In this document: one piece after another, positions 17,173 through 53,342 of the stretch
How the letters are laid out: every line of letters starts with the position of its first letter
Numbering within the stretch: position 1 is the stretch's first letter
Source of the DNA: Parapedobacter lycopersici
GTDB lineage: Bacteria; Bacteroidota; Bacteroidia; Sphingobacteriales; Sphingobacteriaceae
Direction: 5' to 3'
Length of the DNA stretch: 64,000 nucleotides
Assembly: GCF_040395035.1 (NCBI RefSeq)
Contig: NZ_JBEBRB010000001.1
Coordinates: 81,579 to 145,578, forward strand
The notes under the pieces: generated by a model
Seen by the model: only the letters and a program-made list of their open reading frames with translations
The model's database searches: none
What the model was told of the DNA's origin: nothing
Position numbers and translations under genes: made by a program

Positions 17173-17365
17173 AGGGTTCACATTCGCAAAATTGTAATAC
17201 GCGAAAATAATCAAAGTTATTAACAATAACGACAGCCGATGGGCTTTGCCTGCATTAAAATTTCCGATAAATGGCTAAAAATGCAAATGAGCAGCTGAAT
17301 CTTTTTTTCTATCGGAAAATAGTATATTTGAAAACTATCAATTGTCACCCTATACAGTAAACTAA

Positions 17366-19291
17366 ATGTTTGATCGGTTTAGCATCGTACCCCGTTGGGT
17401 GATTTTTATGCTGGATTTGTGCTGCAGCGCTGTAGCATTGTTCTTTGCGTCATTATTATTAAATGGATTCAATTACCAGGCAATTCATTCGACGACATTC
17501 AGCCGGAACCTGCTTATTCTGTTAGGCGTTAATGTAATGGTGTTTTACCGGCTGCAAATGTATGCCGGCATCGTGCGATACACAAGTGCATTGGATTCCG
17601 TACGCATTCTATCATCCATATCATTAACAGTGATCATCCTCTTTCTCTTAAACAATATACTGATCGCATTCAACCGTGCGCCGCTATTAACCAACAGCCA
17701 GTTAATTACTTATGGATTAATGAGTTTTCTGTTTCTTATTACCTACCGGTCCGCGGTTAAGCTTTTCTTTCTATACATTAAAAACATGAAGGTCAACCGG
17801 CGGCAGACAATTATATACGGTGCCGGCGATGTAGGCATTGCCACTAAACGGACCCTGGATCACGATCATAACACCAATAATGTCGTTGTTGGTTTCATTG
17901 ACGACAACACGCAGAAAATCGGCAAAGTCATTGATGGTGTACGGATTTATGATACGGAATATTTTGAGCAGCTCATCCTACTGGGGAAAGTGGACGAGTT
18001 AATCATATCCACACATAATATCCCTGTTGAGAAGAAGACGAGAATCGTCGATTTGTGCCTGGAAAAAAACGTAAAGGTGCTTACCATGCCACCGGTTCAC
18101 CGCCTTATCAACGGCGAAGTTAATGCAAGCCACATCCAGAAAATGCGGATCGAGGACCTGCTCGAACGCGAAGCTATTAAAATCAACAATCAATCCATCA
18201 GCCGGCAGCTGAAGGGTAAACGTATTTTAGTAACCGGTGCGGCCGGATCCATCGGCAGCGAAATTGCACGGCAGCTGGGGCATTATGCGCCCCAGATGGT
18301 CATCCTGAATGATCAAGCTGAAACACCTTTACATGAATTGCACCTCGAGTTGCTAGAGAGTCAAAAAAGTCAGGTATACCATGCTTATATCGGTGATATT
18401 CGTGACTCGGAGCGTATGGAGTCGTTGTTTCGCACATTCAAGCCACATTACGTATATCATGCTGCGGCATATAAACACGTGCCGATGATGGAAAACCATC
18501 CCGTAGAAGCCGTCCGGACAAATATCATGGGCACCCGTCTTCTTGCCCGTCTGGCCGTACAGTACGGTGTCGAAAAATTTGTTATGATCTCTACAGATAA
18601 AGCGGTAAATCCTACTAACGTAATGGGCGCATCCAAACGCATCGCAGAGATCTATGTACAAACTTATTTCAATCACCTCTTACAAAAGAACACATTGCTG
18701 GAGGGCAATAATAGCCAACCACACACACTTTTTATTACCACCCGGTTCGGGAATGTACTGGGATCCAACGGCTCCGTGATACCAAGGTTTCAAGCTCAGA
18801 TTGAAAAGGGCGGACCACTAACGGTAACCCATCCCGAAATCACTCGTTTTTTCATGACCATTCCCGAAGCCTGCCAACTGGTACTGGAGGCAGGCTCTAT
18901 GGGAAAAGGCGGGGAAATCTATGTGTTTGACATGGGTGAGTCGGTAAAAATTGTGGAGCTGGCGAACAAAATGATCAAATTATCTGGCCTTATACCCAAC
19001 AAAGATATTACGATTGAATATTCGGGACTTCGTCCCGGTGAAAAATTATACGAAGAGTTGTTGAACGATTTAGAAAACACCTTACCCACACACCATCACA
19101 AGATCATGATCGCCAAGGTAAGGGAATATGATTTTGAAGCAGTCAACAAACAGATTGACAGCCTGGTTGCAAGCGCAAGGCATCAAAATGAACGGGAGAT
19201 CGTATTCAAAATGAAGGAAATGGTTCCCGAGTTCAAGAGTAATAATTCCGTCTATGAGGAATTGGATAGACGGAAAAATATGGGCACATAG
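17366..19291 (+). CDS. Membrane-bound nucleoside-diphosphate sugar 4,6-dehydratase (CapD/WbpM/PglF type)
   Basis: Four N-terminal TM segments, TGAAGSIGSE, HAAAYKHVP, STDKAVNPTNVMGASK, RFGNVLGS. Confidence 0.92.
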   Translation: MFDRFSIVPRWVIFMLDLCCSAVALFFASLLLNGFNYQAIHSTTFSRNLLILLGVNVMVFYRLQMYAGIVRYTSALDSVRILSSISLTVIILFLLNNILIAFNRAPLLTNSQLITYGLMSFLFLITYRSAVKLFFLYIKNMKVNRRQTIIYGAGDVGIATKRTLDHDHNTNNVVVGFIDDNTQKIGKVIDGVRIYDTEYFEQLILLGKVDELIISTHNIPVEKKTRIVDLCLEKNVKVLTMPPVHRLINGEVNASHIQKMRIEDLLEREAIKINNQSISRQLKGKRILVTGAAGSIGSEIARQLGHYAPQMVILNDQAETPLHELHLELLESQKSQVYHAYIGDIRDSERMESLFRTFKPHYVYHAAAYKHVPMMENHPVEAVRTNIMGTRLLARLAVQYGVEKFVMISTDKAVNPTNVMGASKRIAEIYVQTYFNHLLQKNTLLEGNNSQPHTLFITTRFGNVLGSNGSVIPRFQAQIEKGGPLTVTHPEITRFFMTIPEACQLVLEAGSMGKGGEIYVFDMGESVKIVELANKMIKLSGLIPNKDITIEYSGLRPGEKLYEELLNDLENTLPTHHHKIMIAKVREYDFEAVNKQIDSLVASARHQNEREIVFKMKEMVPEFKSNNSVYEELDRRKNMGT

Positions 19292-42685: not shown

Positions 42686-43075
42686 TTATTTGCTGATCAT
42701 TGGCAGGTACTTCCGGCGGTTCTCAATAATGACCCAGATATTAGTGGCCATAATAAACAGCGCAACCGGTAATCCCGATGGTGCTACGGTTGAATGTACG
42801 CACAGCACGCCAACTGTAATGGGCAGGATGACAATGGCCCCAAGTGCCCGGGACCTTGCCGGGATAAAAAGCACGCCGCCGATAATTTCGATGGCGGCCA
42901 CCAACGGCATCAGCCAGCTGACTTCCATCAGTGCCATGCTGTCCTTGATCAGCTCTTCCGGCAGGTCAGGGGGTACCGGCATGTAATTAAAAATTTTGTT
43001 CAATCCCGAGTTGATGTAACCCAATCCGAATAAGAGACTCAGTACAAATAAAATTTTCGCTTTCATCGTGTTCAT
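42686..43075 (-). CDS. DoxX-family membrane protein
   Basis: LFGLGYINSGLNK, EIIGGVL, four hydrophobic segments. Confidence 0.82.
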   Translation of the reverse strand: MNTMKAKILFVLSLLFGLGYINSGLNKIFNYMPVPPDLPEELIKDSMALMEVSWLMPLVAAIEIIGGVLFIPARSRALGAIVILPITVGVLCVHSTVAPSGLPVALFIMATNIWVIIENRRKYLPMISK

Positions 43076-43302: not shown

Positions 43303-43330
43303 AATAAAAGAGTTTTTTGTCTTTTATTAA
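43303..43330. promoter_or_regulatory. Putative Rrf2 operator, site 1
   Basis: AATAAAAGA-N8-TCTTTTATT palindrome just upstream of TActTTTG (43339-43346). Confidence 0.7.
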
Positions 43331-43364
43331 AATAACATTACTTTTGTACCATAAACAAACGTGA

Positions 43365-43799
43365 ATGTTCTCTAAAACCTGCGAGTATGCAATAAGGGCT
43401 GTGATCTTCATCGCACGCGAGTCGAAAGACGGACGGCGTGTCGGTGTCCGGGAAATCGCCCAAGGCATCGGTTCACCGGTATATTTCATCGCCAAAATTC
43501 TGCAGGAGCTCAGTAAAAAGGGGATTATCCAGTCGCTGAAAGGTCCCACCGGCGGATTCTATATGGACGGACAATCACTTGATTATACGTTAGCCGATAT
43601 CGTGGTGGCCATTGACGGCGATAAACTGCTCACCGGCTGCGCGCTCGGGCTAAACGAATGTTCGGAGAAACGGCCCTGTCCCCTGCACTTTGAATTCAGG
43701 CATATCCGAAAGGAACTGCACGCACTGCTGGCGCGGACAAAACTGAGTGAATTACAGGATAAATTTGATGCCTCCATCTTTTATCTGGGCAGTAAGTAA
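43365..43799 (+). CDS. Rrf2-family transcriptional regulator with three Fe-S-type cysteines
   Basis: MFSKTCEYAIRA, KILQEL, SLKGPTGGF, CALGLNECSEKRPCPLH. Confidence 0.93.
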   Translation: MFSKTCEYAIRAVIFIARESKDGRRVGVREIAQGIGSPVYFIAKILQELSKKGIIQSLKGPTGGFYMDGQSLDYTLADIVVAIDGDKLLTGCALGLNECSEKRPCPLHFEFRHIRKELHALLARTKLSELQDKFDASIFYLGSK

Positions 43800-43810
43800 A
43801 ATTTTTTGAA

Positions 43811-43838
43811 TTAATAAAAGACAAAAAGGTATTAATAT
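43811..43838. promoter_or_regulatory. Putative Rrf2 operator, site 2
   Basis: ttaataaaagacaaaaa 43811-43827 is the exact reverse complement of 43314-43330. Confidence 0.65.
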
Positions 43839-43845
43839 CGTTTTT

Positions 43846-45969
43846 ATGACACTTTACAACAAAGCAAACCTATCCCTGGTTGGCGTTACATTGCAGGTAC
43901 CCAATATTTATTCATTGCAGCTCGGCTGGTCCGAGTTGGCAATGGGTGCACTCGTCGTTATGCTCCTGGTACTGCTTGGGGTACTGTTATCGTTATACCG
44001 GCGGGTTACTGCCATCCGTAACAGCATCCAGGGTGGGTTTGATATCCGGATCAGACGCCAGCTCAGCCAGCTCAACGGCCGCCAGCTGGACATCGTGCTG
44101 CAACACAAAAAACAGGGTGGTCAAAAACGGGGTACCCTCGCAGCATCGGGAAAGGCGGTGCTTCTGATGATGGCGTTACTGGCCGGCCTCCCTGCGTGGG
44201 CGCAGCCCGACGGTGCTGCTTCGGGTATTGCCTGGGGTAGTGCCGGCATTGTCATCACCCTTGTACTTATACTCATTCCTGTACTCTGCGGCCTCGTTTT
44301 AATGGTTGTGAAGATCCGGCGGACACTAACCCGCTACCAACGCCGGCAGCACAGTGCATTGGCCGATGAATTGGCCCAGTACCTGGATGGACTAACAAAA
44401 AGCGAAGAACTGGATCAGTTGACCAGACGGAAGTCGGCGCTGGACTACCAGCTGACAAATACCGAACTCGCCGGCAACAGCGACGTACACGACAGGCGGG
44501 GCCTGGTAGCTTCTGCGAGCAGCGACGTGAATTTGCCCATTGCCGCGCCAAAAAAACGGGCGGTACGACGGCCCAATATAGACAGTAACCTGGCCAAACT
44601 GGTGCTGTGGTACATCGGCACCTCAGCATTCTGGCTACTATTCGGTACAACGGTTGGCCAATACCTCGGCATCAAATTTCTCGCACCGGATGCCGATCAG
44701 CTAAGCTGGCTGAGTTTTGGCCGGCTCCGTCCGGTACACACCAATGCGGTATTCTGGGGATGGGCATCACTGGGCATGCTGGGATTGGGTTACTACATCG
44801 TACCCCGGGTAAGTAATACGCCCATCGCAAACCTTCGGCACGGCTGGCTCTCGCTGATCCTGATCAACGTTACGGTTGTACTGGGTACCGTCAGCCTCAT
44901 GGCAGGTATCAACAATGGCGGTGGCGAATATCGCGAATATATCTGGCCGGTCATGCTCCCGTTTGCTGTAGCGTTGGTGCTAACCCTGACGAATTTCCTA
45001 AAAACCGTTGCCCGCCGGAAAACTACGGAAATCTACATCTCCAACTGGTATATGATTTCGGCCATCATTTTCACGATTGTCATTGCGCTGGTGGCTTATC
45101 TTCCTTTTTGGCAGAATGGTCTCGGGGAAATTATTGTACAGGGCTACTACATGCACCAGGGCGTAGGTATGTGGTTTATGCTTTTTACACTGGGCATTGT
45201 ATATTACTTCCTGCCGCAGCAGCTTAATAAACCGATCTACTCCTACAGCCTCGGCATCCTCGCTTTCTGGACGCAGATTTTATTTTATACGCTGATTGGC
45301 ACCCACCACTTCATCTTCAGCGCCATTCCATGGTGGCTGCAGACGGTAGCCATCGTGGGCAGTGCGGGTATGGCCATTCCAGTAGTGGCCGGCACCACCA
45401 ATTTCCTGATGACATTCAAAGGCGCTTGGTATAAAGTAAAAGACAGCTACACGCTTCCTTTCTTCCTGGCTGGTATTATCTTCTATTTTACCGGTTCCAT
45501 GCAGGGTACGGCTGAAGCGTTCCGATACACCAACCTCATCTGGCATTTCACCGACTTTACGGTGGCCCACTCGCACCTCACCATGTACGGCATTATCTCG
45601 TTCCTCCTCTGGGGAAGCATGTATGCCGTAGTGCCGCGCCTCACGGGTCAGGAACCTCCCCAGCTCACCGTTGGGGCTCATTTCTGGTTCTCGCTCATCG
45701 GCCTGATGTTCTATACCGTACCGCTCATGTATGGCAGCTCCTTACGCGGCCTGATGTGGATGGACGGAAAGCCGTTTATCGACAGCGTGGTGCTGATGGC
45801 TCCCTATTGGCTGTGGCGGGCCATCGGAGGCACGCTGATGTGGCTCTCACACCTGCTGTTCGCCTATAATCTTTACAAAATGTACAGCACAGACAAGCAA
45901 TCGAACATCGTCGAAGAAGCACTCGAAAAACTGACCGGTAATGACGCTCAGGTCACGCAAACAAAGTAA
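43846..45969 (+). CDS. Divergent cbb3-type (C-family) heme-copper oxidase subunit I with about 245-aa N-terminal extension
   Basis: RLRPVHTNAV (H298), YYMHQGVG (H437), FYTLIGTHH (Y481,H487,H488), TDFTVAHSH (H575,H577). Confidence 0.88.
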   Translation: MTLYNKANLSLVGVTLQVPNIYSLQLGWSELAMGALVVMLLVLLGVLLSLYRRVTAIRNSIQGGFDIRIRRQLSQLNGRQLDIVLQHKKQGGQKRGTLAASGKAVLLMMALLAGLPAWAQPDGAASGIAWGSAGIVITLVLILIPVLCGLVLMVVKIRRTLTRYQRRQHSALADELAQYLDGLTKSEELDQLTRRKSALDYQLTNTELAGNSDVHDRRGLVASASSDVNLPIAAPKKRAVRRPNIDSNLAKLVLWYIGTSAFWLLFGTTVGQYLGIKFLAPDADQLSWLSFGRLRPVHTNAVFWGWASLGMLGLGYYIVPRVSNTPIANLRHGWLSLILINVTVVLGTVSLMAGINNGGGEYREYIWPVMLPFAVALVLTLTNFLKTVARRKTTEIYISNWYMISAIIFTIVIALVAYLPFWQNGLGEIIVQGYYMHQGVGMWFMLFTLGIVYYFLPQQLNKPIYSYSLGILAFWTQILFYTLIGTHHFIFSAIPWWLQTVAIVGSAGMAIPVVAGTTNFLMTFKGAWYKVKDSYTLPFFLAGIIFYFTGSMQGTAEAFRYTNLIWHFTDFTVAHSHLTMYGIISFLLWGSMYAVVPRLTGQEPPQLTVGAHFWFSLIGLMFYTVPLMYGSSLRGLMWMDGKPFIDSVVLMAPYWLWRAIGGTLMWLSHLLFAYNLYKMYSTDKQSNIVEEALEKLTGNDAQVTQTK

Positions 45970-45981
45970 TGATAAGCACCC

Positions 45982-46983
45982 ATGGAATTTTTCAACAACC
46001 ATACTAAACTCTTCACCACCGCCTTTCTCTTCTTTGCGATACTTACGCTGTTCGTGGTGATTATCCCCGCCATTAGCAACCAACAGCGCAATGCCGAACT
46101 GCCGAATGCGGTACCGCTCAGCGAAGATGCCCGGAAGGGCAAGGAACTGTTCATCGCCAACGGTTGTGTCGCCTGTCATACGCAACAAGTGCGCAACGTG
46201 GATATGGACAGCCGTTGGGGAAGCCGGCCGGGCATCGCCGCCGACTATGCGGGCATGAAGCGAATGGATATCTGGCGCAATACGGCAACGCTCGCCGGCA
46301 CTGAGCGCACCGGTCCGGACCTCACCGATGTAGGCAACAGGCAACCGAGTCTCGACTGGAACCTGGTTCACCTCTATAATCCACGGATTGTGGTCATGGA
46401 ATCTATTATGCCAGCTTATCCCTGGTTATTTGAATATAAAACCGTGCTTTCAAAAGGAGACGTGGCTGTCACCGTACCCGAAGCCTTTCTCAACGGGAAG
46501 GAAGGAAAAGTAGTAGCAAAAAAAGAGGCCCTGCAGCTCGTCGCATACCTGCAATCATTGAAACAGGTGGAATTACCGGGAGAAAGCCCGACGCCCCAGT
46601 TCCTCTATAAAAGAGAAGCGGACGCAACAGACAGTTCCGGCGGAACCACCGTGGGTGCCGATGGTGCCCTACTTTACGCCAATAACTGCCAGGCATGCCA
46701 CCAGGCCGACGGAAAAGGGCTGGCCGGCGCATTTCCCTCACTGGCCGGCAGCCCGGTAGTAACGGGCAACGATCTGTCGCTGTACGTAGACATTATCATG
46801 AACGGTTATGACGCACGGCCGGAATATGGTGCCATGCCGGGTGTGGGTACAATGATGGGCTTTTCCGCCGAGGAAGTTGCAGCCATTATTAATCATGAAC
46901 GGACCAGCTGGGGCAACGGCGGCAAACAGGTGACGGCGGAAGAAGTACAGGAAATTTTAACCCTATTGGAAACCGCGAATTAA
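45982..46983 (+). CDS. cbb3-type subunit II (CcoO-like) fused to a second cytochrome c domain
   Basis: GCVACHTQQVR, RTGPDL, HLYNPR, SIMPAYPWL; second CQACH domain with AFPSLAGS and MPG. Confidence 0.9.
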   Translation: MEFFNNHTKLFTTAFLFFAILTLFVVIIPAISNQQRNAELPNAVPLSEDARKGKELFIANGCVACHTQQVRNVDMDSRWGSRPGIAADYAGMKRMDIWRNTATLAGTERTGPDLTDVGNRQPSLDWNLVHLYNPRIVVMESIMPAYPWLFEYKTVLSKGDVAVTVPEAFLNGKEGKVVAKKEALQLVAYLQSLKQVELPGESPTPQFLYKREADATDSSGGTTVGADGALLYANNCQACHQADGKGLAGAFPSLAGSPVVTGNDLSLYVDIIMNGYDARPEYGAMPGVGTMMGFSAEEVAAIINHERTSWGNGGKQVTAEEVQEILTLLETAN

Positions 46984-47103
46984 GCTGCGACTGTCATGTA
47001 CGGCAACAAAAACTCACATACAGATGAAACCTGCAGAAAATACCCATTACACCAAAGACATGAGTAATTCACGCAAGATTCATTGCCTTTAAAAGTAAAT
47101 CAA

Positions 47104-47382
47104 ATGAAAAAAAGAATATATACCCTACTGAGTCTGATGCTTCCCACCCTTACCGGGTTGGCATGCCCGGTGTGTGAAAGGCAGCAGCCGAAACTGTTCC
47201 AGGGAATAACCCACGGCGCAGGGCCAGCCAGCGATTGGGACTACCTGATTATCGCCATTATGGTGGCAATCGTTGTCTTTACGCTCTATTTCTCCGTTAA
47301 GATGCTGGTACGGCCGGGAGAAAACAAGCCGAATCATATTAAACATACCATATTAACTTTGGAAGATGGCAGCGAAAAGTAA
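47104..47382 (+). CDS. Small membrane protein with signal peptide and CPVC motif
   Basis: MKKRIY...GLACPVCERQQP, THGAGP, one TM helix; inside the oxidase operon. Confidence 0.7.
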   Translation: MKKRIYTLLSLMLPTLTGLACPVCERQQPKLFQGITHGAGPASDWDYLIIAIMVAIVVFTLYFSVKMLVRPGENKPNHIKHTILTLEDGSEK

Positions 47383-47773
47383 AGTCATAATCTACATCGA
47401 TGACGAGCCCAACCCCATCGCGGCTTTCGATACCCCGGTTAATTTCGAACTGGATACCCGGAAGCTGGTTGATGGCCTGCACGAGCTCACCATCATCAGT
47501 AAGGATCCGACCGGCAAGGAAGGAATCCGCAAAGTTCCTTTTGAAGTACGGAATGGACCTGCCATCAGCATCGAGGGCATCCGGGAAAACGCCGTGGTGG
47601 ACGGTATTGTGCCACTCATGATCAATGCATACGGCAAAGGCGATCAGAAGGACTTTCTGATCTCAGGGAGTGAAACTCCCCAGAGCATACCTGCCTGGGT
47701 ATGGATTTTGATTATTGGTTTTGCAGGGTGGGCATTATTCTATCTATTTAGGTATTTTGCAATGCCGCTATAA
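47366..47773 (+). CDS. Hypothetical protein, Ig-like beta-rich domain with C-terminal TM anchor
   Basis: FELDTRKLVDGLHELTI...FEVRNGP beta-sandwich pattern; C-terminal WVWILIIGFAGWALFYL; overlaps previous stop. Confidence 0.7.
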   Translation: MAAKSKVIIYIDDEPNPIAAFDTPVNFELDTRKLVDGLHELTIISKDPTGKEGIRKVPFEVRNGPAISIEGIRENAVVDGIVPLMINAYGKGDQKDFLISGSETPQSIPAWVWILIIGFAGWALFYLFRYFAMPL

Positions 47774-47782
47774 GGCGTAAAA

Positions 47783-48190
47783 ATGGGAACGATCATGGAA
47801 AAGAAAAACGACATCACAACAATTGACGATATCCAGCAACTGGTAGACACGTTTTACGGCAAGGTAAGGGAAAATCCATTAATAGGGCCAATCTTCAATG
47901 GCGTAATCGGCGATCGCTGGCCGGAGCATCTCGCAAAAATGTACCGGTTCTGGCAAACCGTGCTGTTCGGCGAACACACGTATTTCGGCAGTCCATTCCC
48001 CCCGCATGCCCAGCTTCCGGTGGATCGGCGGCATTTCGACACCTGGCTGGGACTGTGGCACGCTACCATCGACCAGTTTTTTGAGGGAGAGAAGGCTACA
48101 GAAGCAAAATGGCGGGGCGATAAGATGGCCGAAATGTTTCTTGCCAAAATCGACTACTTCAGAAATAATCAATCATCCCCGCTGTTATGA
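47783..48190 (+). CDS. Group III truncated haemoglobin
   Basis: LVDTFYGKVR, IGPIF, WPEHLAKMYRFW, PFPPH, HFDTWL. Confidence 0.92.
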   Translation: MGTIMEKKNDITTIDDIQQLVDTFYGKVRENPLIGPIFNGVIGDRWPEHLAKMYRFWQTVLFGEHTYFGSPFPPHAQLPVDRRHFDTWLGLWHATIDQFFEGEKATEAKWRGDKMAEMFLAKIDYFRNNQSSPLL

Positions 48191-48630
48191 GTACCCTCGT
48201 TAAACAACCTACTGCGGTTGCCTGTCTTTTTATCTGGATCGGCATGGTCTGCGGCATTAGTTTCCTGGAAGCCTGGCTTAAATTCCGCGCACCCGGTGTC
48301 ACGATGCCGATCGGCCTGGGAATCGGCCGCCTCGTTTTCAATACCCTCAACAAAGTAGAATGGGTGCTTGCCGCCATCGTTGTGGTCACCGCCATGATGC
48401 ACACCAATACGCTGTTTTCAGCCAGGAATGCATTTCTGCTTCTTGCGGTTATCATCCTCATCCTGCAAACGGCGTGGCTGTTGCCCACATTGGATGCCCG
48501 GGCTCAACTGGTTATCGAAAACAAGCCGCTTCCGCCCTCCAATCTGCATTACCTGTTCATTGGGGCGGAAGTGCTGAAAATTGCAGGCCTCTTTGCCGCG
48601 GCAATCGGCCACTTTGAAAAAACTACCTAA
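48187..48630 (+). CDS. Four-TM membrane protein (DUF4149-like)
   Basis: WIGMVCGISFLEAWLKF, GRLVF, WLLPTLDARA; ATGA overlap with the globin gene. Confidence 0.72.
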   Translation: MSTLVKQPTAVACLFIWIGMVCGISFLEAWLKFRAPGVTMPIGLGIGRLVFNTLNKVEWVLAAIVVVTAMMHTNTLFSARNAFLLLAVIILILQTAWLLPTLDARAQLVIENKPLPPSNLHYLFIGAEVLKIAGLFAAAIGHFEKTT

Positions 48631-48640
48631 AAATACCGCC

Positions 48641-49369
48641 ATGGAAATTACAACCCAACATACTGTCGGCCAGGTGGTCGCCAGAGACTACCGCTCGGCC
48701 GCTGTATTCAGCAAGGCCGGAATCGATTTTTGCTGCGGAGGCAACCGGACCATCGACGAAGCCTGCCAGCAGGCAGGTGTCGCCCCTGCTCCCCTGATCG
48801 ACGCCCTTAAAGCCGCCCTTACGACGGATCAGGGTACCGGGGAAAATGACTACGACGCGTGGCCGCTTGACATGCTCGCCGACCATATTGAAGATACACA
48901 TCACCGCTATGTCGAATCCAGGATCTCGGAAATTACGCCACTGCTTCAGAAAATAAAAACAGTGCATGGCGACCGCCATCCGGAACTTGCCCGGATCATG
49001 GACTTGTTTACGGAAGCCGGCGGGGAACTCACTTTGCACATGAAGAAAGAAGAGCTGATGCTCTTCCCGTTTATCCGGCGGATGGCACAGGCACAGCGCC
49101 AAGGGGAACCGCTGCCGCCCTCCCGCTTTGGGACGGTAGCCAATCCGATCGCCATGATGGAGCACGACCACGATGGCGAAGGCGAGCGCTTCCGCCAGAT
49201 TGCCGCGCTGTCCGGAAATTACACTCCCCCATCGGATGCCTGCAACACCTACCGGGTAACCCTGGCCTTGCTGCAGGAATTTGAAGCCGACCTCCACCTG
49301 CATATTCACCTGGAAAATAACATCCTATTTCCGAAAGCAGTCCAAATGGAAAGCGAGCTGTCGTCCTGA
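48641..49369 (+). CDS. ric: Iron-sulfur cluster repair di-iron protein (Ric/ScdA/YtfE)
   Basis: GIDFCCGG, HHRY, HMKKEELMLFP, MMEHDHD, HIHLENNILFP. Start moved to ATG 48641. Confidence 0.95.
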   Translation: MEITTQHTVGQVVARDYRSAAVFSKAGIDFCCGGNRTIDEACQQAGVAPAPLIDALKAALTTDQGTGENDYDAWPLDMLADHIEDTHHRYVESRISEITPLLQKIKTVHGDRHPELARIMDLFTEAGGELTLHMKKEELMLFPFIRRMAQAQRQGEPLPPSRFGTVANPIAMMEHDHDGEGERFRQIAALSGNYTPPSDACNTYRVTLALLQEFEADLHLHIHLENNILFPKAVQMESELSS

Positions 49370-49395
49370 CAGTGGGCCACTCAACAACCGCGATC

Positions 49396-49860
49396 ATGGA
49401 TAACAAGCCACTGAAAAGAAGCGCGTATTTAAAGTCCATCAGCCGCGATCACCACCATGGATTGCTGTTCTGCTGGAAAATCCGGGAAGGGTTCAAACGG
49501 GGTGTCGCCGCGGATCGTATTAAACAGTACGCCGACTGGTTCTGGCGGGCGCACCTCATCGATCATTTCGCCCTGGAAGAGCGGTACATCTTTCCCGTTC
49601 TTGGCGACGGCCACGAGCTGGTGAAACGGGCGCTTGCCGAGCATAGGCGGCTGAAGCGGTTGTTCGAACAGGAAACGGAAGTGTGGCGCTCCCTGAGTTT
49701 GATTGAAGAGGAACTGGACGAACACATCCGTTTTGAGGAGCGGGTGCTGTTCAGCGAGTTACAACGCGTGGCTACCACCCCGCAGCTGGCCGAGATAGCC
49801 GAACACCATGGCGGCGCGGCGCATGCGCCCGAGTGGGGAGACGAATTCTGGAAAGACTAA
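49396..49860 (+). CDS. Hemerythrin-domain protein
   Basis: SRDHHHGL, HF..EERYIFP, EH, HIRFEERVLF. Confidence 0.85.
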   Translation: MDNKPLKRSAYLKSISRDHHHGLLFCWKIREGFKRGVAADRIKQYADWFWRAHLIDHFALEERYIFPVLGDGHELVKRALAEHRRLKRLFEQETEVWRSLSLIEEELDEHIRFEERVLFSELQRVATTPQLAEIAEHHGGAAHAPEWGDEFWKD

Positions 49861-52800
49861 GTGGTCATATCCCGCAGTATGCGGATCGCCTGTTCAATAT
49901 CGGGAACCTGTTCAAAGGCTATGCGAAGGGAACCCTTTACCTCTTTCAGGTTGCAGATTGTCGGATTCTGCTGCACAAACTGCAATACCCTGCCAAACTG
50001 GTCGCTTTCAAAATAGCCCGGATTAGTGGAAAAATAACCCCGGAGCACCTGCTTCTTGAACGAAATTTTCTCAAAGCCGATTTCCCTCCCCAGCCATTGC
50101 AGGCGCAGCGTGTTGAGCAGCTCCTCTACCTGACGGGGCGTCGGACCGAAACGGTCGCGCAGCGATTGCCTAAAAGCTTCCAGTTGCTCTTCATTTTCGA
50201 GTTTGGCAATTTCATTATAGAGATTATACCGCTCACCTACATGGGTAACGTACTCATCGGGAATAAGCACTTCCAGGTCGGTATCAATCTGCGTGAATGA
50301 TACAAAATCACGCGGCTTAACATCCTTGAACAGGTCTGCAAATTCATCGTCCTTCAGTTCCTGTATAGCCTCGTCGAGGATTTTGTGGTACATTTCGAAG
50401 CCGATTTCGGCGATAAAGCCGCTCTGTTCCGCTCCCAGCAGGTTGCCGCTGCCCCGGATATCAAGGTCGCGCATAGCCACGTTAAAGCCGCTGCCGAGCT
50501 CCGAGAATTCCTCGATGGCGCTAAGCCGTTTATAAGCCTCGGCAGTAAGGGTAGACAGCGGTGGACTCAACAGGTAACAGAAGGCCTTTTTATTGGACCT
50601 GCCTACCCGTCCGCGCATCTGATGGAGATCGCTCAGCCCAAACATATGGGCGTGGTTGATGATAATCGTATTGGCATTGGGAATATCAAGGCCTGCCTCA
50701 ATGATGGTTGTGGCTACCAGGACATCGTATTCGTGGTTGATAAACTTGAGCATCACATCCTCAAGCGCATCGCCTTCCAATTGTCCGTGAGCCACGCCAA
50801 CGCGGGCCTGGGGCACCAGCTTCTTGATCATGTTGCCCAGCTGGGGGAGATCAGCCACGCGGTTGTGGATAAAAAACACCTGCCCCCCGCGGTCGATTTC
50901 ATACGAAACAGCCTCCTGGATCAGCGTTTCATTGAAGACGTGGAGTTCGGTCTGCACGGGCTGGCGGTTGGGTGGCGGTGTATTGATGATGCTGAGATCA
51001 CGGGCGCCCATCAATGAAAAATGCAACGTACGCGGAATCGGCGTAGCCGTCAGCGTAAGCGCATCCACGTTGGCACGGAGCTGCTTGAGTTTTTCCTTCA
51101 CTCCAACGCCGAATTTCTGCTCCTCGTCTACGATCATCAGGCCGAGGTCCTTAAACTTCACATCCTTGCTTACCAGCCGGTGTGTGCCGATTATGATATC
51201 CAGTTTACCTTCGGCAAGTCTTGCCAGGGTTGCCTTGATTTCTTTCGATGTCTTAAAACGGTTGATGTAGTCCACCGAGCAGGGAAACCCTTCAAGCCTT
51301 TCGGAAAACGTACGGTAATGCTGCATGGCCAGGATCGTGGTCGGTACCAGCACGGCCACCTGCTTGCTGTCGGCCACCGCCTTGAACGCCGCACGGACGG
51401 CTACTTCCGTTTTACCGAACCCTACGTCGCCGCATACCAGGCGGTCCATCGGGTGGGGCGATTCCATATCGCGCTTGACGTCTAGCGTAGCCTTCTCCTG
51501 ATCGGGGGTATCTTCATAGATAAATGAAGCCTCCAGCTCCGTCTGCAGGTACGTATCGGGGTTAAAGGCATTGCCGGTCTGGGCTTTGCGCTTGGCGTAA
51601 AGCCGGATCAGGTCACGCGCAATATCCTTAACTTTTTTTTTAGTGGTCTTCTTCAGTTTTTCCCACGCATCGGTACCCAGTTTGTTCATTTTGGGTACCG
51701 CACCCTCCTTTCCGCTGTACTTGGAAATGCGGTTGAGGGAATTGATGTTGACATACAGCAGGTCATTGTCTGCATATACCAACCGGATCATCTCCTGCAC
51801 CTTCCCGTTTACCTCCACCTTTTCCAGTCCGGCATACTTGCCGATACCGTGGTCAATATGTGTGATAAAATCCCCCGGCTTCAGCTCACGCAGCTCCTTG
51901 AGCGTAATCGCCTGGGAGCGTTCGTAGCCTTTTTTACGTTTATATTTATAATAACGGTCGAATATCTGGTGGTCAGTATAACAGGCGATGCCCCGGTCCA
52001 GATCGGCGAACCCTTCCCGCAGCGACAGGTGGATGGGTGTAAACGTAATGGATTTATCCAGGTCATCCAGGATAGCGATCAGCCGTTCGATCTGCTTCGG
52101 TGAATCACTGAAAATGCAGTTCTGCATTTTTGCCTGTTCATTTTCCCTGAAATTATGGATCAGCAGGTTAAAGTCCTTATTGAACGAAGGCTGCGGGCGC
52201 TGTGCAAACGTAATGGTGTGCGTGGCGTCGTAAAAAAACTGCTTGCCGAACTCCACGACGGCAAAGTCGCGCAACATGGCCGACAGGTTTTTTTCGTCGA
52301 CAAAATTAAACAACGGGTTTACCCATTCGGGATGCTGCTGTCTATCGGCTTCCGGAAGCGCTTTCCAGAGTTCCTGGGCTTTCTTATATCCCTTACCTAC
52401 CACATCCAGCGTAAACTGGACGTCCTTGAACCAGATGGCGGAATCCGCCGAAACGTATTCCAGCAAAGCGATGTTTCCTTCCGTGAGGAATTTCGCCTGC
52501 ACATTTGGTACAATCGTCACCGTCCGTATTTTGCTGACGGAAAGCTGGCTTTCCACATCAAACGTACGGATGCTATCAATGTCGTTCCCGAAAAACTCAA
52601 TGCGGTAAGGCAAGTCGTTCGAAAAAGAAAAAATATCCACGATACCGCCACGGATCGCGTACTGGCCCGGTTCGTATACGAAGTCGACCCGCTCAAACGC
52701 ATACTCCTGGAGGAATTCATTGATGAAATCGATATCCAATGACGCGTTCTGACTGATTTCCAATGTGTTTTTTTCCAGATCGGTCCGGTTGATCACCTTT

Positions 52801-53189
52801 TCAGCCAATGCTTCGGGGTAAGTGACCACCAACCGGGGCAGTTCCGACACATGGTTCAGCGTGTTCAATGTTTCTGCACGCTGCAGCACATGGGCGCTAT
52901 CGGTTTGGGTAAAATCAAATGCTTTGCGGTACGAAGCCGGGAAGAACAGTACCTGTTTGTCGAACAGGCTCTCCAGGTCACTCAGGAAATACGACGCCTC
53001 CTCATGGGTGGGCAGCACAAACACCATGGGCTTTTCCTGAAGCTGATAGCAAGCCACAGCCACCATCGCATCAGCCGACCCGATCAGTCCCTTAAGCTGG
53101 ACTTTCGGATTTTTTCCGTGCAATGCCTTCGTCAAGGCTGTTACGTGCTCGCTTTGACGATAATTCGCTAATATATCATCGATGCCCAC
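49857..53189 (-). CDS. mfd: Transcription-repair coupling factor
   Basis: CarD-like HIDHGIGKY, DRLVCGDVGFGKTEV, DEEQKFG, TATPIPRTL, QMRGRVGR, RDLDIRG. GTG start at 53189 inferred from TAccTTTG about 20 nt upstream. Confidence 0.97.
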   Translation of the reverse strand: MGIDDILANYRQSEHVTALTKALHGKNPKVQLKGLIGSADAMVAVACYQLQEKPMVFVLPTHEEASYFLSDLESLFDKQVLFFPASYRKAFDFTQTDSAHVLQRAETLNTLNHVSELPRLVVTYPEALAEKVINRTDLEKNTLEISQNASLDIDFINEFLQEYAFERVDFVYEPGQYAIRGGIVDIFSFSNDLPYRIEFFGNDIDSIRTFDVESQLSVSKIRTVTIVPNVQAKFLTEGNIALLEYVSADSAIWFKDVQFTLDVVGKGYKKAQELWKALPEADRQQHPEWVNPLFNFVDEKNLSAMLRDFAVVEFGKQFFYDATHTITFAQRPQPSFNKDFNLLIHNFRENEQAKMQNCIFSDSPKQIERLIAILDDLDKSITFTPIHLSLREGFADLDRGIACYTDHQIFDRYYKYKRKKGYERSQAITLKELRELKPGDFITHIDHGIGKYAGLEKVEVNGKVQEMIRLVYADNDLLYVNINSLNRISKYSGKEGAVPKMNKLGTDAWEKLKKTTKKKVKDIARDLIRLYAKRKAQTGNAFNPDTYLQTELEASFIYEDTPDQEKATLDVKRDMESPHPMDRLVCGDVGFGKTEVAVRAAFKAVADSKQVAVLVPTTILAMQHYRTFSERLEGFPCSVDYINRFKTSKEIKATLARLAEGKLDIIIGTHRLVSKDVKFKDLGLMIVDEEQKFGVGVKEKLKQLRANVDALTLTATPIPRTLHFSLMGARDLSIINTPPPNRQPVQTELHVFNETLIQEAVSYEIDRGGQVFFIHNRVADLPQLGNMIKKLVPQARVGVAHGQLEGDALEDVMLKFINHEYDVLVATTIIEAGLDIPNANTIIINHAHMFGLSDLHQMRGRVGRSNKKAFCYLLSPPLSTLTAEAYKRLSAIEEFSELGSGFNVAMRDLDIRGSGNLLGAEQSGFIAEIGFEMYHKILDEAIQELKDDEFADLFKDVKPRDFVSFTQIDTDLEVLIPDEYVTHVGERYNLYNEIAKLENEEQLEAFRQSLRDRFGPTPRQVEELLNTLRLQWLGREIGFEKISFKKQVLRGYFSTNPGYFESDQFGRVLQFVQQNPTICNLKEVKGSLRIAFEQVPDIEQAIRILRDMTT

Positions 53190-53342
53190 TGCGGTAAAAC
53201 GGGGGCAAAGGTAACGAAAAAACGGCATTTCTGTACACGAAATAAACCTAAATAGCAACGTAGCAGGCACCCACCGCGCAGCAAGCAATTAAATTTCCCG
53301 GATTTTAACCTGATTTGGCGTTAATGTTGCTATATTGTTTTC

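What the first reader, a model, noticed from the sequence alone, without database searches (positions are those of the whole stretch)
43303..49860. Rrf2-led operon joining a non-canonical cbb3-like oxidase to NO-defence proteins: top candidate novel system
Seen: nine co-oriented genes with short gaps or overlaps: 3-Cys Rrf2, long CcoN-like, diheme CcoO-like, CPVC membrane protein, Ig-like anchored protein, group III truncated Hb, 4-TM protein, Ric, hemerythrin. No CcoP, CcoQ or ccoGHIS. Established: NsrR (Rrf2 family) controls ric/ytfE and NO-detoxifying globins; cbb3 oxidases are the closest O2-reductase relatives of cNOR and some reduce NO. Inference: an NO- or hypoxia-induced terminal reductase module, either an NO-tolerant oxidase or a new C-family-derived NO reductase, packaged with Fe-S repair and gas-binding proteins.
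Basis: partly seen in the sequence, partly recalled or inferred. Interest (0 to 1): 0.82.

Follow-up and report, generated by a model that had tools for sequence, protein, structure and literature searches.

The report
Rrf2-controlled variant cbb3 oxidase operon
This is a real nine-gene operon found in hundreds of soil and freshwater Bacteroidota species, joining an unstudied branch of cbb3-type respiratory oxidases, whose catalytic site looks oxygen-reducing, to nitric-oxide stress proteins under its own Rrf2 repressor; whether it mainly handles O2 or NO needs a bench test.

Summary
Nine co-oriented genes lie at 43365-49860, and a promoter-overlapping operator lies at 43303-43328.

- **Subunit I.** It belongs to a compact, strongly supported clade inside the C family of haem-copper oxidases. 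That clade is separate from canonical CcoN/CcoNO and far from qNOR. All six His ligands, the helix-VII cross-link Tyr and the Ca-site Glu are invariant in 84 relatives, and no NOR-type Glu is present. By sequence it is an O2-reductase-type enzyme, not a NOR-type one.
- **Four-gene core.** Subunit I, a CcoO-cytochrome c fusion, a DUF6019 small membrane protein and a tail-anchored beta-sandwich protein occur together in 60 of 60 complete loci.
- **Other genes.** Rrf2 and a group III globin each occur in 46 of 60 loci. RIC, hemerythrin and the 4-TM protein vary.
- **"No CcoP" is only half right.** In other Bacteroidota classes the beta-sandwich protein carries a C-terminal cytochrome c, so it is the remnant of a CcoP-like third subunit.
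- **ccoGHIS.** A canonical ccoI-S-NO-Q-P-G-H locus lies on the same contig.
- **Operator.** The palindrome AATAAAAGA-N8-TCTTTTATT is conserved before rrf2 or ccoN across three orders. It also precedes RIC and nirK in some relatives.

Best reading: an NO-derepressed alternative cbb3-type oxidase module. No paper on it was found.

The parts
43303..43328 (.). Operator: perfect palindrome AATAAAAGA-GTTTTTTG-TCTTTTATT, 37 nt upstream of the rrf2 start codon
   Evidence: It occurs once in the 3.04-Mb genome at 0 mismatches, and the next best site has 2. At <=3 mismatches it is found upstream of rrf2 in 58 of 68 related loci, at a fixed -57 to -68, against 5 of 340 control windows.
43339..43346 (+). 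TACTTTTG, matching the Bacteroidota -7 promoter element TAnnTTTG. A TTTG (-33-like) lies inside the operator spacer.
   Evidence: Read from the sequence. The same TAnnTTTG follows the operator in L046, L049 and L027. The consensus itself is from my own knowledge, not tested here.
43365..43799 (+). Rrf2-family regulator, 144 aa, with invariant Cys6, Cys92, Cys99, Cys105 and His108
   Evidence: Pfam Rrf2 89.6 bits and TIGR00738 87.3 bits (above the 73.3 cut-off). The NsrR equivalog gives only 29.9 bits against a 182 cut-off. Conservation over 67 orthologues.
43811..43837 (+). Second site: the operator half-site AATAAAAGA at -33 of the ccoN-like start, within the conserved block AATAAAAGAYAAAAAGGTATTAATA
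   Evidence: It is the exact 17-nt inverted copy of part of site 1. A half-site at about -33 is present in 42 of 61 loci where rrf2 is directly upstream, and the block is conserved in Chitinophaga L049.
43846..45969 (+). Subunit I of a variant C-family haem-copper oxidase, 707 aa. Residues 1-245 are a poorly conserved N-terminal extension with about 3 hydrophobic segments. The core is residues 246-690.
   Evidence: COX1 273 bits. The best solved relatives are cbb3 CcoN (9g6b, 3mk7; E 1e-59), and no NorB scored at E<1e-3. H298, E361, H437, Y481, H487, H488, H575 and H577 are invariant in 84/84 relatives. The clade has 100/100 support.
45982..46983 (+). Subunit II: a CcoO-like monohaem domain fused to a second class I cytochrome c domain (CVACH, CQACH), 333 aa
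   Evidence: FixO 91.9 bits and Cytochrom_C 61.2 bits. NF011054 'CcoO/cytochrome c' scores 99 bits, below the 447 cut-off. Present in 60/60 loci.
47104..47382 (+). Small membrane protein: signal/anchor, CPVCE...GITHGxGP...WDY, one TM, then the invariant PGE..HIK tail. Probable small subunit or assembly factor.
   Evidence: Present in 60/60 loci. 14 of 27 members hit Pfam DUF6019. The Cys motif is missing in the L028/L029 versions.
47366..47773 (+). Tail-anchored beta-sandwich protein, 135 aa, with no signal peptide and a C-terminal TM helix. It is the anchor part of a CcoP-analogous third subunit.
   Evidence: Present in 60/60 loci. AF2 pLDDT 81.7, six strands plus helix 110-132. The orthologues in L028, L029, L031 and L032 continue after the TM into a monohaem cytochrome c domain.
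47783..48190 (+). Group III truncated haemoglobin, 135 aa
   Evidence: Bac_globin 29.8 bits (cut-off 21). The best solved relative is 2ig3 (Ctb), E 2e-16. Present in 46/60 loci.
48187..48630 (+). 4-TM membrane protein, 147 aa, function unknown (weak DUF4149 likeness)
   Evidence: Present in 16/60 loci, and next to RIC in L031 and L032. 2 of 18 members hit DUF4149, best E 5e-4.
48641..49369 (+). RIC/YtfE-type di-iron Fe-S repair protein, 242 aa
   Evidence: TIGR03652 237.7 bits, above the 204.7 cut-off; ScdA_N plus Hemerythrin domains. Present in 24/60 loci.
49372..49860 (+). Single-domain hemerythrin-like protein, 162 aa
   Evidence: Hemerythrin 37.3 bits, above the 25.3 cut-off. Present in 31/60 loci. 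It converges on mfd (49857-53288, - strand).

Best explanation
The locus encodes a second, lineage-specific cbb3-type (C-family) cytochrome c oxidase.

Proposed composition (inferred, not shown):
- subunit I;
- a dihaem CcoO-cytochrome c subunit;
- a DUF6019 small membrane protein;
- a tail-anchored protein with a cytoplasmic beta-sandwich, descended from a CcoP-like subunit.

Proposed regulation:
- The enzyme is co-transcribed with cytoplasmic haem and di-iron proteins: a group III globin, RIC and a hemerythrin.
- A dedicated Fe-S Rrf2 repressor binds the palindrome AATAAAAGA-N8-TCTTTTATT, which overlaps the promoter.
- NO, or a related oxidant, damages the repressor's cluster. That releases the operator and switches on the whole set.

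Proposed function:
- The oxidase then keeps electron flow to O2 going when the other haem-copper oxidases are blocked by NO. It probably also turns over some NO, as canonical cbb3 enzymes do.
- The globin, RIC and hemerythrin buffer O2/NO and repair Fe-S clusters.

Shown here: gene content, conservation of the core, active-site type, phylogenetic place, operator conservation and operator targets.

Inferred: the signal (NO), the subunit roles of the two small proteins, and the enzyme's substrate preference.
For: Identity of the enzyme:
- The best solved relatives are cbb3 CcoN, and no NorB matched.
- All ligands and the helix-VII Tyr are invariant in 84/84 relatives, and Gly stands at the NOR Glu211 position.
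- In the careful tree the family has 100/100 support. It is sister (100/98) to ordinary ccoN-ccoO-cyt c-ccoI operons of other Bacteroidota classes. That pair sits next to the clade holding P. stutzeri CcoN and this genome's own CcoNO. qNOR lies on a distant long branch.

Complex:
- The four-gene core is present in 60/60 loci.
- The beta-sandwich protein is fused to a cytochrome c in four distant members.

Regulation:
- The operator is unique in this genome.
- It is conserved before rrf2 in 58/68 loci.
- It stands directly before ccoN in 8 of 21 loci where rrf2 is not adjacent.
- It also precedes RIC (L069), nirK (L078) and DUF1858-DUF2249 genes.

NO theme:
- RIC, a group III globin and hemerythrin are in the operon.
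- Recurrent neighbours include a 2Fe-2S ferredoxin, Crp/Fnr, DUF1858-DUF2249 and FeS_assembly_P.
- nirK shares the same-strand gene row in G196, and a qNOR lies 6 kb away in G149.

Need:
- This genome has no cytochrome bd, no NOR and no nirK, so every terminal oxidase it has is a haem-copper enzyme.
- Canonical cbb3 oxidases are strongly inhibited by NO, yet they show NO reductase side activity (review PMC9266656).

Precedents:
- P. aeruginosa orphan CcoN3/CcoN4 isoforms give resistance to nitrite and cyanide (PMC5697931, citing Hirai 2016).
- C. jejuni induces the group III globin Ctb under nitrosative stress (PMC5577044).
Against: - There are no expression or activity data.
- The regulator fails the NsrR equivalog model (29.9 bits against 182), so NO sensing rests on context alone.
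- RIC, hemerythrins and Rrf2 proteins also answer to oxidative, iron and redox signals.
- Four of 8 module-bearing genomes do have cytochrome bd, so the module does not simply replace bd.
- Fourteen of 60 loci lack the adjacent rrf2 and 14 lack the globin.
- The family-specific changes next to CuB (Trp203 to Gly, Gly206 to Met, Asn208 to Gln; invariant in 84/84) could alter chemistry in ways sequence cannot predict.
- nirK in one operon with the module (G196) is the pattern usually seen for NO reductases.
Confidence: 0.6

Rival explanations
1. The enzyme is a dedicated respiratory NO reductase that arose inside the C family while keeping CuB and the Tyr, possibly conserving energy through the retained proton path. 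The globin, RIC and hemerythrin are its NO-damage escort.
For: - It is in the same-strand gene row as nirK in G196, and nirK lies within 9 kb in L028 and L078.
- The operator stands before nirK in L078.
- This genome and G215 and G253 have no recognised NOR.
- There are invariant family-specific changes next to CuB.
- Canonical cbb3 already reduces NO slowly (PMC9266656).
Against: - Every NOR family described so far lacks the active-site Tyr, and new NORs were recognised by that loss (PMC11214002). Here the Tyr is invariant.
- There is no Glu at the FeB position.
- The clade sits among O2 reductases.
- G149, G185 and three Chitinophagaceae MAGs carry a qNOR or a cNOR-related enzyme beside or near the module, which would make a second NOR redundant.
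- This genome has no nitrite reductase to feed it.
Confidence: 0.15
2. The operon is a hypoxia-, iron- or redox-responsive high-affinity oxidase module with no special link to NO. The Rrf2 protein reports Fe-S or redox status (IscR/RsrR-like), and the globin and hemerythrins handle O2.
For: - The regulator's best solved relatives are RsrR (6y45, 6hsd) and IscR, ahead of NsrR.
- It has the IscR-like Cys-x6-Cys-x5-Cys-x2-His pattern.
- Group III globin Ctb did not protect C. jejuni against NO (PMC5577044). The title of the Ctb paper listed among that article's references describes Ctb as implicated in oxygen metabolism.
- Most loci have no nirK or nor gene nearby.
Against: - RIC is a classic nitrosative-stress gene and is in the operon or under the same operator.
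- The operator also precedes nirK in L078.
- About 8% of loci adjoin nirK, qNOR or a cNOR-related enzyme.
- The genome already has a canonical high-affinity cbb3 with its own assembly genes.
Confidence: 0.15
3. The nine genes are a chance or recently assembled neighbourhood, not a functional unit.
For: The accessory genes (4-TM, RIC, hemerythrin) vary between loci, and P. indicus lacks RIC and the 4-TM protein.
Against: - The core is present in 60/60 loci across three orders, and also in other classes.
- Gaps between genes are short.
- The operator is shared across the family.
Confidence: 0.01

Closest known systems
Canonical cbb3-type cytochrome c oxidase CcoNOQP (P. stutzeri 3MK7/5DJQ; the fused CcoNO-CcoQ-CcoP of Bacteroidota, present in this genome at C1:203000-215374)
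   Same: - C-family subunit I with the same six His ligands, the helix-VII Tyr, the Ca-site Glu, and Tyr223/Tyr317 of the proton path.
- A CcoO-type monohaem subunit.
- c-type haems as the electron entry.
   Different: - Only 30-33% identity to CcoN, and in a separate clade.
- It scores 250 bits on the ccoN model against a 583 cut-off.
- Trp203 to Gly, Gly206 to Met, Ser240 to Gly, His243 to Ala and Glu323 to Gln (P. stutzeri numbering).
- It has a 245-aa N-terminal extension.
- There is no CcoQ and no dihaem CcoP. Instead there are a CcoO-cytochrome c fusion, a DUF6019 protein and a tail-anchored cytoplasmic beta-sandwich.
- No ccoGHIS genes are in the operon.
- It is under Rrf2 control with NO-stress genes.
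P. aeruginosa orphan CcoN3Q3/CcoN4Q4 isoforms
   Same: Alternative C-family catalytic subunits, induced by respiratory poisons (nitrite, cyanide), that confer resistance at low O2 (PMC5697931).
   Different: - Those are close paralogues that borrow the CcoO/CcoP of the main operons.
- This is a distant clade with its own full subunit set and its own regulator.
- No function has been tested here.
cNOR/qNOR nitric oxide reductases
   Same: - The same superfamily branch (C-family side).
- A cytochrome c partner subunit.
- Genomic company of nirK in a few relatives.
   Different: NORs lack the Tyr and carry Glu211/Glu215-type residues for FeB (all 6 qNOR rows). This enzyme has the Tyr and Gly/Met at those positions. 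No NorB or qNOR scored at E<1e-3.
NsrR regulons (E. coli ytfE/hmp, Neisseria nirK/norB, Bacillus, Streptomyces)
   Same: An Rrf2 repressor with three C-terminal Cys. It is autoregulated from a promoter-overlapping palindrome. Its targets include RIC, a globin and, in a relative, nirK.
   Different: - It is not an NsrR orthologue by the NCBIfam model.
- It has an extra invariant Cys6 and His108.
- Its 9-8-9 operator was not compared with published NsrR boxes.
- Its main target is a respiratory oxidase.
C. jejuni NssR regulon globin Ctb (group III truncated haemoglobin)
   Same: Ctb is the closest solved relative of the operon's globin (E 2e-16). It is NO-induced in an organism that respires through a cbb3 oxidase (PMC5577044).
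   Different: - The regulator family differs (Crp/Fnr against Rrf2).
- Ctb is not encoded with the oxidase.
- The role of Ctb itself is unsettled.

Membership tests
C-family (cbb3-type) haem-copper O2 reductases | Six conserved His: low-spin haem b (2), high-spin haem b3 (1) and CuB (3) | tested here: met
   H298, H577 (haem b), H575 (haem b3) and H437, H487, H488 (CuB) align with P. stutzeri H60, H347, H345, H207, H257, H258. They are invariant in 84/84 relatives.
C-family (cbb3-type) haem-copper O2 reductases | Cross-link Tyr on helix VII, six residues before the HH pair | tested here: met
   Y481 aligns with Y251 and is invariant in 84/84 relatives. The cross-link itself cannot be seen from sequence.
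C-family (cbb3-type) haem-copper O2 reductases | Placement inside the C-family radiation in a superfamily tree | tested here: met
   Careful IQ-TREE of 96 rows with A-type and qNOR outgroups. The family has 100/100 support, lies nested among CcoN clades, and is not inside the canonical clade.
C-family (cbb3-type) haem-copper O2 reductases | CcoO-type monohaem cytochrome c subunit encoded next to subunit I | tested here: met
   FixO 91.9 bits, above the 29.6 cut-off.
C-family (cbb3-type) haem-copper O2 reductases | Scores above NCBIfam's ccoN (TIGR00780) and ccoO (TIGR00781) equivalog cut-offs | tested here: not met
   250.7 bits against 583.15 for ccoN, and 78.6 bits against 200.65 for ccoO. 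It is therefore a C-family member but not a canonical CcoN/CcoO equivalog.
C-family (cbb3-type) haem-copper O2 reductases | Separate dihaem CcoP and CcoQ subunits, with ccoGHIS assembly genes alongside | tested here: not met
   None is in the operon. CcoP is replaced by a cytochrome c domain on CcoO plus the beta-sandwich anchor protein. ccoGHIS is present elsewhere in the genome.
C-family (cbb3-type) haem-copper O2 reductases | Cytochrome c:O2 oxidoreductase activity with high O2 affinity | not testable with these tools
   This needs a purified enzyme or membranes.
cNOR/qNOR nitric oxide reductases | Loss of the active-site Tyr, and Glu ligands for FeB (Glu211 and neighbours) | tested here: not met
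   The Tyr is kept, and Gly441 and Met445 stand where the 6 qNOR rows have Glu.
cNOR/qNOR nitric oxide reductases | Grouping with NorB in trees or sequence searches | tested here: not met
   No NorB among the PDB hits at E<1e-3. qNOR lies on a separate 4.4-unit branch.
NsrR (NO-sensing Rrf2 repressor) | Rrf2 fold with three conserved C-terminal Cys for an Fe-S cluster | tested here: met
   Pfam Rrf2 89.6 bits. C92, C99 and C105 are invariant in 67 orthologues.
NsrR (NO-sensing Rrf2 repressor) | Scores above the NsrR equivalog cut-off (NF008240) | tested here: not met
   29.9 bits against 182. It works like an NsrR by context but is not filed as one.
NsrR (NO-sensing Rrf2 repressor) | Regulon of NO-detoxification or repair genes behind a conserved palindromic operator | tested here: met
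   The operator stands before rrf2 and the oxidase operon, which holds the globin, RIC and hemerythrin. It also precedes RIC (L069) and nirK (L078).
NsrR (NO-sensing Rrf2 repressor) | NO-dependent loss of DNA binding | not testable with these tools
   This needs EMSA or spectroscopy.
RIC/YtfE di-iron repair proteins | ScdA_N plus hemerythrin-like domains, above the TIGR03652 cut-off | tested here: met
   237.7 bits against 204.7.
Group III truncated haemoglobins | Closest to Ctb-type globins rather than to groups I or II | tested here: met
   2ig3 (Ctb) at E 2e-16, against the next hit, 1ux8 (molecule name in the hit table: YjbI protein), at E 2e-4.

The most novel reading that the evidence does not exclude
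The family is the first C-family enzyme whose physiological substrate is NO, or both NO and O2. It would use a Tyr-containing CuB site remodelled by Trp203 to Gly and Gly206 to Met, and would keep a cytoplasmic proton path. That would give Bacteroidota an energy-conserving NO reductase, which would explain missing nor genes in carriers that have nitrite reductase. The cytoplasmic beta-sandwich of the CcoP-like subunit would be a docking site for the co-encoded globin or RIC.
Probability: 0.15. Interest if true: 0.85.

Novelty: new variant of a known kind. Interest (0 to 1): 0.62.

Why it matters
Haem-copper oxidases are poisoned by nanomolar NO. The accepted bacterial answer is cytochrome bd or a separate NO reductase. 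This genome has neither.

Here a whole branch of cbb3-type oxidases, found in at least 583 species of soil, rhizosphere, freshwater and wastewater Bacteroidota, is wired into an NO-stress regulon with its own subunits.

If it is an NO-tolerant oxidase, it shows a new way to keep aerobic respiration running next to denitrifiers and nitrifiers. If it reduces NO, gene-based N2O budgets miss a common enzyme, because annotation pipelines call it plain 'cbb3-type cytochrome c oxidase subunit I'.

The finding also supplies three directly testable items:
- a clean operator motif for an uncharacterised Rrf2 subfamily;
- two new candidate oxidase subunits (a DUF6019 protein and a cytoplasmic beta-sandwich anchor);
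- a natural set of active-site substitutions next to CuB.

Tried and rejected
- Literature: four full-text searches combining cbb3, Rrf2/NsrR, truncated haemoglobin, Bacteroidota and carrier genus names found no paper on this cluster. Muntyan et al. 2015, said to define an 'unknown group' beside authentic cbb3 with a 'mandatory Glu', is not held. I therefore could not check whether that group is this family.
- Fold search for the 135-aa protein gave only generic Ig/FnIII/cadherin-like hits, none at E<1e-3. No specific relative can be named.
- Pfam and NCBIfam gave nothing above cut-off for the CPVC, beta-sandwich and 4-TM proteins of the window. Only scanning whole alignments found DUF6019 and a weak DUF4149 likeness.
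- Regulon search in the window's own genome found no second good operator copy. In this organism the regulon seems to be this operon alone.
- No anti-correlation with cytochrome bd: 4 of 8 carriers have it.
- No clean link with nirK: 2 of 8 carriers have it above cut-off, and the window's genome has none.
- The sigma-70 promoter and terminator scan gave only intragenic, weak hits and is not informative for Bacteroidota.
- Rejected: membership of the eNOR/sNOR/gNOR/nNOR families. Those are B-family relatives with CuA-type subunits and no Tyr (PMC11214002).
- Rejected: membership of the 'N2O red' family of that paper. It is also described there as lacking the Tyr.

Full report
**1. What is in the sequence**

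The window carries nine + strand ORFs between 43365 and 49860. They have short gaps or overlaps, apart from about 120 nt before the CPVC gene. That gene's likely start is the ATG at 47104 rather than the TTG at 47083, because orthologues begin MKK....

Profile searches confirm each identity:
- Rrf2;
- a COX1-domain protein of 707 aa, with the domain at residues 251-664;
- a FixO plus cytochrome c fusion with two CxxCH motifs;
- a Bac_globin protein;
- a RIC protein above the TIGR03652 cut-off;
- a hemerythrin.

The globin's closest solved relative is the group III globin Ctb (2ig3, E 2e-16). The CPVC, 135-aa and 147-aa proteins of the window hit nothing on their own.

The organism is essentially Parapedobacter lycopersici: subunit I is 98% identical to strain KACC 18788.

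**2. The enzyme**

Subunit I aligns end to end with solved cbb3 CcoN subunits (9g6b, 3mk7; E about 1e-59). No NorB chain reaches E 1e-3.

In P. stutzeri numbering, these residues are kept:

| P. stutzeri residue | Residue here |
|---|---|
| His60 | H298 |
| Glu122 | E361 |
| His207 | H437 |
| Tyr251 | Y481 |
| His257 / His258 | H487 / H488 |
| Tyr317 | Y547 |
| His345 / His347 | H575 / H577 |

All of them are invariant in 84 of 84 Bacteroidia family members. They are also kept in members from other classes.

The positions where qNOR has Glu are Gly441 and Met445. Murali et al. (PMC11214002) state that O2 reduction requires the redox-active Tyr, and that the new NOR families were recognised by its loss. 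By that yardstick this is an O2-reductase-type site.

It is not a canonical one, however:
- It scores 250 bits against the 583 cut-off of the ccoN equivalog.
- It has invariant family-specific residues beside CuB: Trp203 to Gly, Gly206 to Met and Asn208 to Gln.
- It also has Ser240 to Gly, His243 to Ala and Glu323 to Gln. These last three also occur in other non-canonical C-family clades.

**3. Phylogeny**

I built a 96-row tree (IQ-TREE, LG+C20, ultrafast bootstrap / SH-aLRT). It included 50%-identity representatives from 1.8 billion proteins, family members from other genomes, the genome's own CcoNO and A-type oxidases, six qNORs, and two solved CcoN sequences.

Results:
- The family is monophyletic (100/100) on a stem of 0.58.
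- Its sister (100/98) is a 27-row clade of unfused CcoN.
- That pair stands next (86/74) to the 12-row clade (100/100) containing P. stutzeri CcoN, 9g83 and this genome's CcoNO.
- qNOR sits elsewhere on a very long branch.

Five loci of the sister clade are ordinary ccoN-ccoO-cytochrome c-ccoI operons without any of the NO-related genes.

Equally, the enzyme is not an intermediate towards NOR.

**4. Distribution and neighbourhood**

In an even sample of 301 Bacteroidota genomes, 8 carry a family member. The score gap is clean: at least 593 bits for members against at most 264 bits for everything else. Carriers include:
- Sphingobacteriales: Parapedobacter, Pedobacter, Albibacterium, Sphingobacterium;
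- Chitinophagales: Chitinophaga, Niabella, Ferruginibacter, Hydrotalea and others;
- Cytophagales: Larkinella, Dyadobacter.

Among 60 loci with complete flanks:

| Gene | Loci (of 60) |
|---|---|
| Subunit I | 60 |
| CcoO-cytochrome c | 60 |
| CPVC protein | 60 |
| 135-aa protein | 60 |
| rrf2 directly upstream | 46 |
| Globin | 46 |
| Hemerythrin | 31 |
| RIC | 24 |
| 4-TM protein | 16 |

Other recurrent neighbours are a 2Fe-2S ferredoxin (26 loci), a Crp/Fnr regulator (15), DUF1858-DUF2249 (15), FeS_assembly_P (13) and a 427-aa membrane protein without a Pfam match (13).

Recognised N-oxide enzymes lie within 9 kb in 7 of 87 loci, about 8%:
- nirK in L029 (same-strand row directly after the globin), in L078, and a nirK-like gene in L028;
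- qNOR in L032, and at the edge of L086, L088 and L092;
- a cNOR-related enzyme with a NorC-like cytochrome and a second rrf2 in L086-L088 and L092.

**5. The two small core proteins**

The 135-aa protein has no signal peptide. Its model (pLDDT 81.7) is a six-strand beta-sandwich followed by a TM helix. Fold matches are generic.

In four members from other Bacteroidota classes the same protein continues after the TM helix into a monohaem cytochrome c domain, giving 269-285 aa with one CxxCH. In one of them (L028) CcoO is monohaem.

A c-type cytochrome domain must be periplasmic, so the beta-sandwich is cytoplasmic. The protein is thus the anchor part of a CcoP-analogous third subunit. In the window's lineage its haem domain sits on CcoO instead. 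This corrects 'no CcoP'.

The CPVC protein belongs, weakly, to DUF6019 (14 of 27 members). Its most conserved part is not the Cys pair, which is absent in L028 and L029. It is the PGE..HIK motif after the TM helix. Whether it is a subunit or an assembly factor is open.

'No ccoGHIS' is true of the operon only. The genome has ccoI, ccoS, ccoNO (1287 bits), a CcoQ-sized ORF, ccoP, ccoG and a CcoH-sized ORF about 85 kb away on the same contig.

**6. Regulation**

A perfect palindrome, AATAAAAGA-N8-TCTTTTATT, lies at 43303-43328, 11 nt before a TAnnTTTG box (43339-43346). It is the only perfect copy in the genome.

Conservation across related loci:
- At no more than 3 mismatches it is found 57-68 nt before the rrf2 start in 58 of 68 loci (15 of them perfect), against 5 of 340 control windows.
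- Where rrf2 is directly upstream, a half-site sits at about -33 of the ccoN-like start in 42 of 61 loci.
- Where rrf2 is not adjacent, the full palindrome stands before the oxidase gene in 8 of 21 loci.
- Further copies precede RIC (L069), nirK (L078, 2 mismatches, 207 nt upstream) and DUF1858-DUF2249/DUF488 pairs (L087, L112, L115).

The regulator keeps Cys92, Cys99 and Cys105, and also Cys6 and His108, in at least 95% of 67 orthologues. It fails the NsrR equivalog model. It therefore works like an NsrR by context but is not filed as one.

**7. Physiological setting**

This genome has two A-type oxidases, the canonical cbb3 and this enzyme. It has no NOR, no nirK and no cytochrome bd.

Published background:
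- P. aeruginosa uses orphan CcoN isoforms for resistance to nitrite and cyanide (PMC5697931).
- C. jejuni induces its group III globin under nitrosative stress, although that globin did not protect the cells against NO (PMC5577044).

Together these make an NO-derepressed alternative oxidase the most economical reading (0.6). The rivals are:
- a dedicated NOR, 0.15;
- a signal other than NO, 0.15. Here the enzyme would be the same and only the trigger would differ.

**8. Limits and verdict**

Nothing here measures expression or activity. No paper on the cluster was found.

Other agents of this scan met the same family in other genomes and read it similarly. That is not independent evidence, but their lead that the operator also precedes nitrite-reductase genes was reproduced here once (L078).

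This is a new variant of a known kind, of moderate to high interest.

Noticed in passing
L087:12857-14341 (+); L086, L088 and L092 at about 17000-18400 (-): Beside the module, some Chitinophagaceae genomes carry three further genes: a 494-aa haem-copper enzyme whose only solved relatives are cNOR NorB (4xyd, E 3e-11), a NorC-like 133-aa cytochrome c, and a second rrf2. In the printed alignment the helix-VI His and the NOR Glu positions are both Gly. It may belong to the cNOR-related 'N2O red' family of PMC11214002.
   Followed up: partly
representatives P0132-P0269: Many 50%-identity representatives of C-family-like proteins lack CuB or haem ligands. For example, only 16 of 27 rows in the sister clade keep His207, and 14 of 27 keep the Tyr. 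A sizeable part of 'CcoN-like' diversity may therefore not be oxidases.
   Followed up: no
G000:C1:203000-215374 (L005), about 85 kb from the finding: A canonical Bacteroidota cbb3 locus: P-type ATPase (ccoI), a 69-aa ORF (ccoS-sized), fused ccoNO (1287 bits), a 63-aa ORF (ccoQ-sized), ccoP, ccoG, and 150-aa and 230-aa ORFs. The contig ends inside ccoI.
   Followed up: yes
L045/L046 12633-13169 (Parapedobacter indicus): In P. indicus the syntenic operon lacks the 4-TM and RIC genes. A ParE toxin gene with a 79-aa partner sits between the hemerythrin and mfd, and DUF4395 replaces DoxX upstream.
   Followed up: no
G124 (L028): One carrier from another Bacteroidota class has only an A-type oxidase and this variant enzyme, with no canonical cbb3. 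There the variant would be the only C-family oxidase, and a nirK-like multicopper gene lies about 6.5 kb away.
   Followed up: no
window 43846-44580: The 245-aa N-terminal extension of subunit I is poorly conserved: 19-39% column identity to the window sequence, against 74-87% in the core. It is absent in members from other classes (436-487 aa), so it is a Bacteroidia-specific add-on.
   Followed up: partly
window 42686-43075 (-): A DoxX-family membrane protein is transcribed divergently from rrf2 and shares the 290-nt intergenic region that holds the operator. The same arrangement is seen in L050, but not in P. indicus.
   Followed up: no
window 49857-49860: The stop of the hemerythrin gene overlaps by 4 nt the stop of the convergent mfd gene (49857-53288, - strand). 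No terminator-like hairpin lies between them.
   Followed up: no
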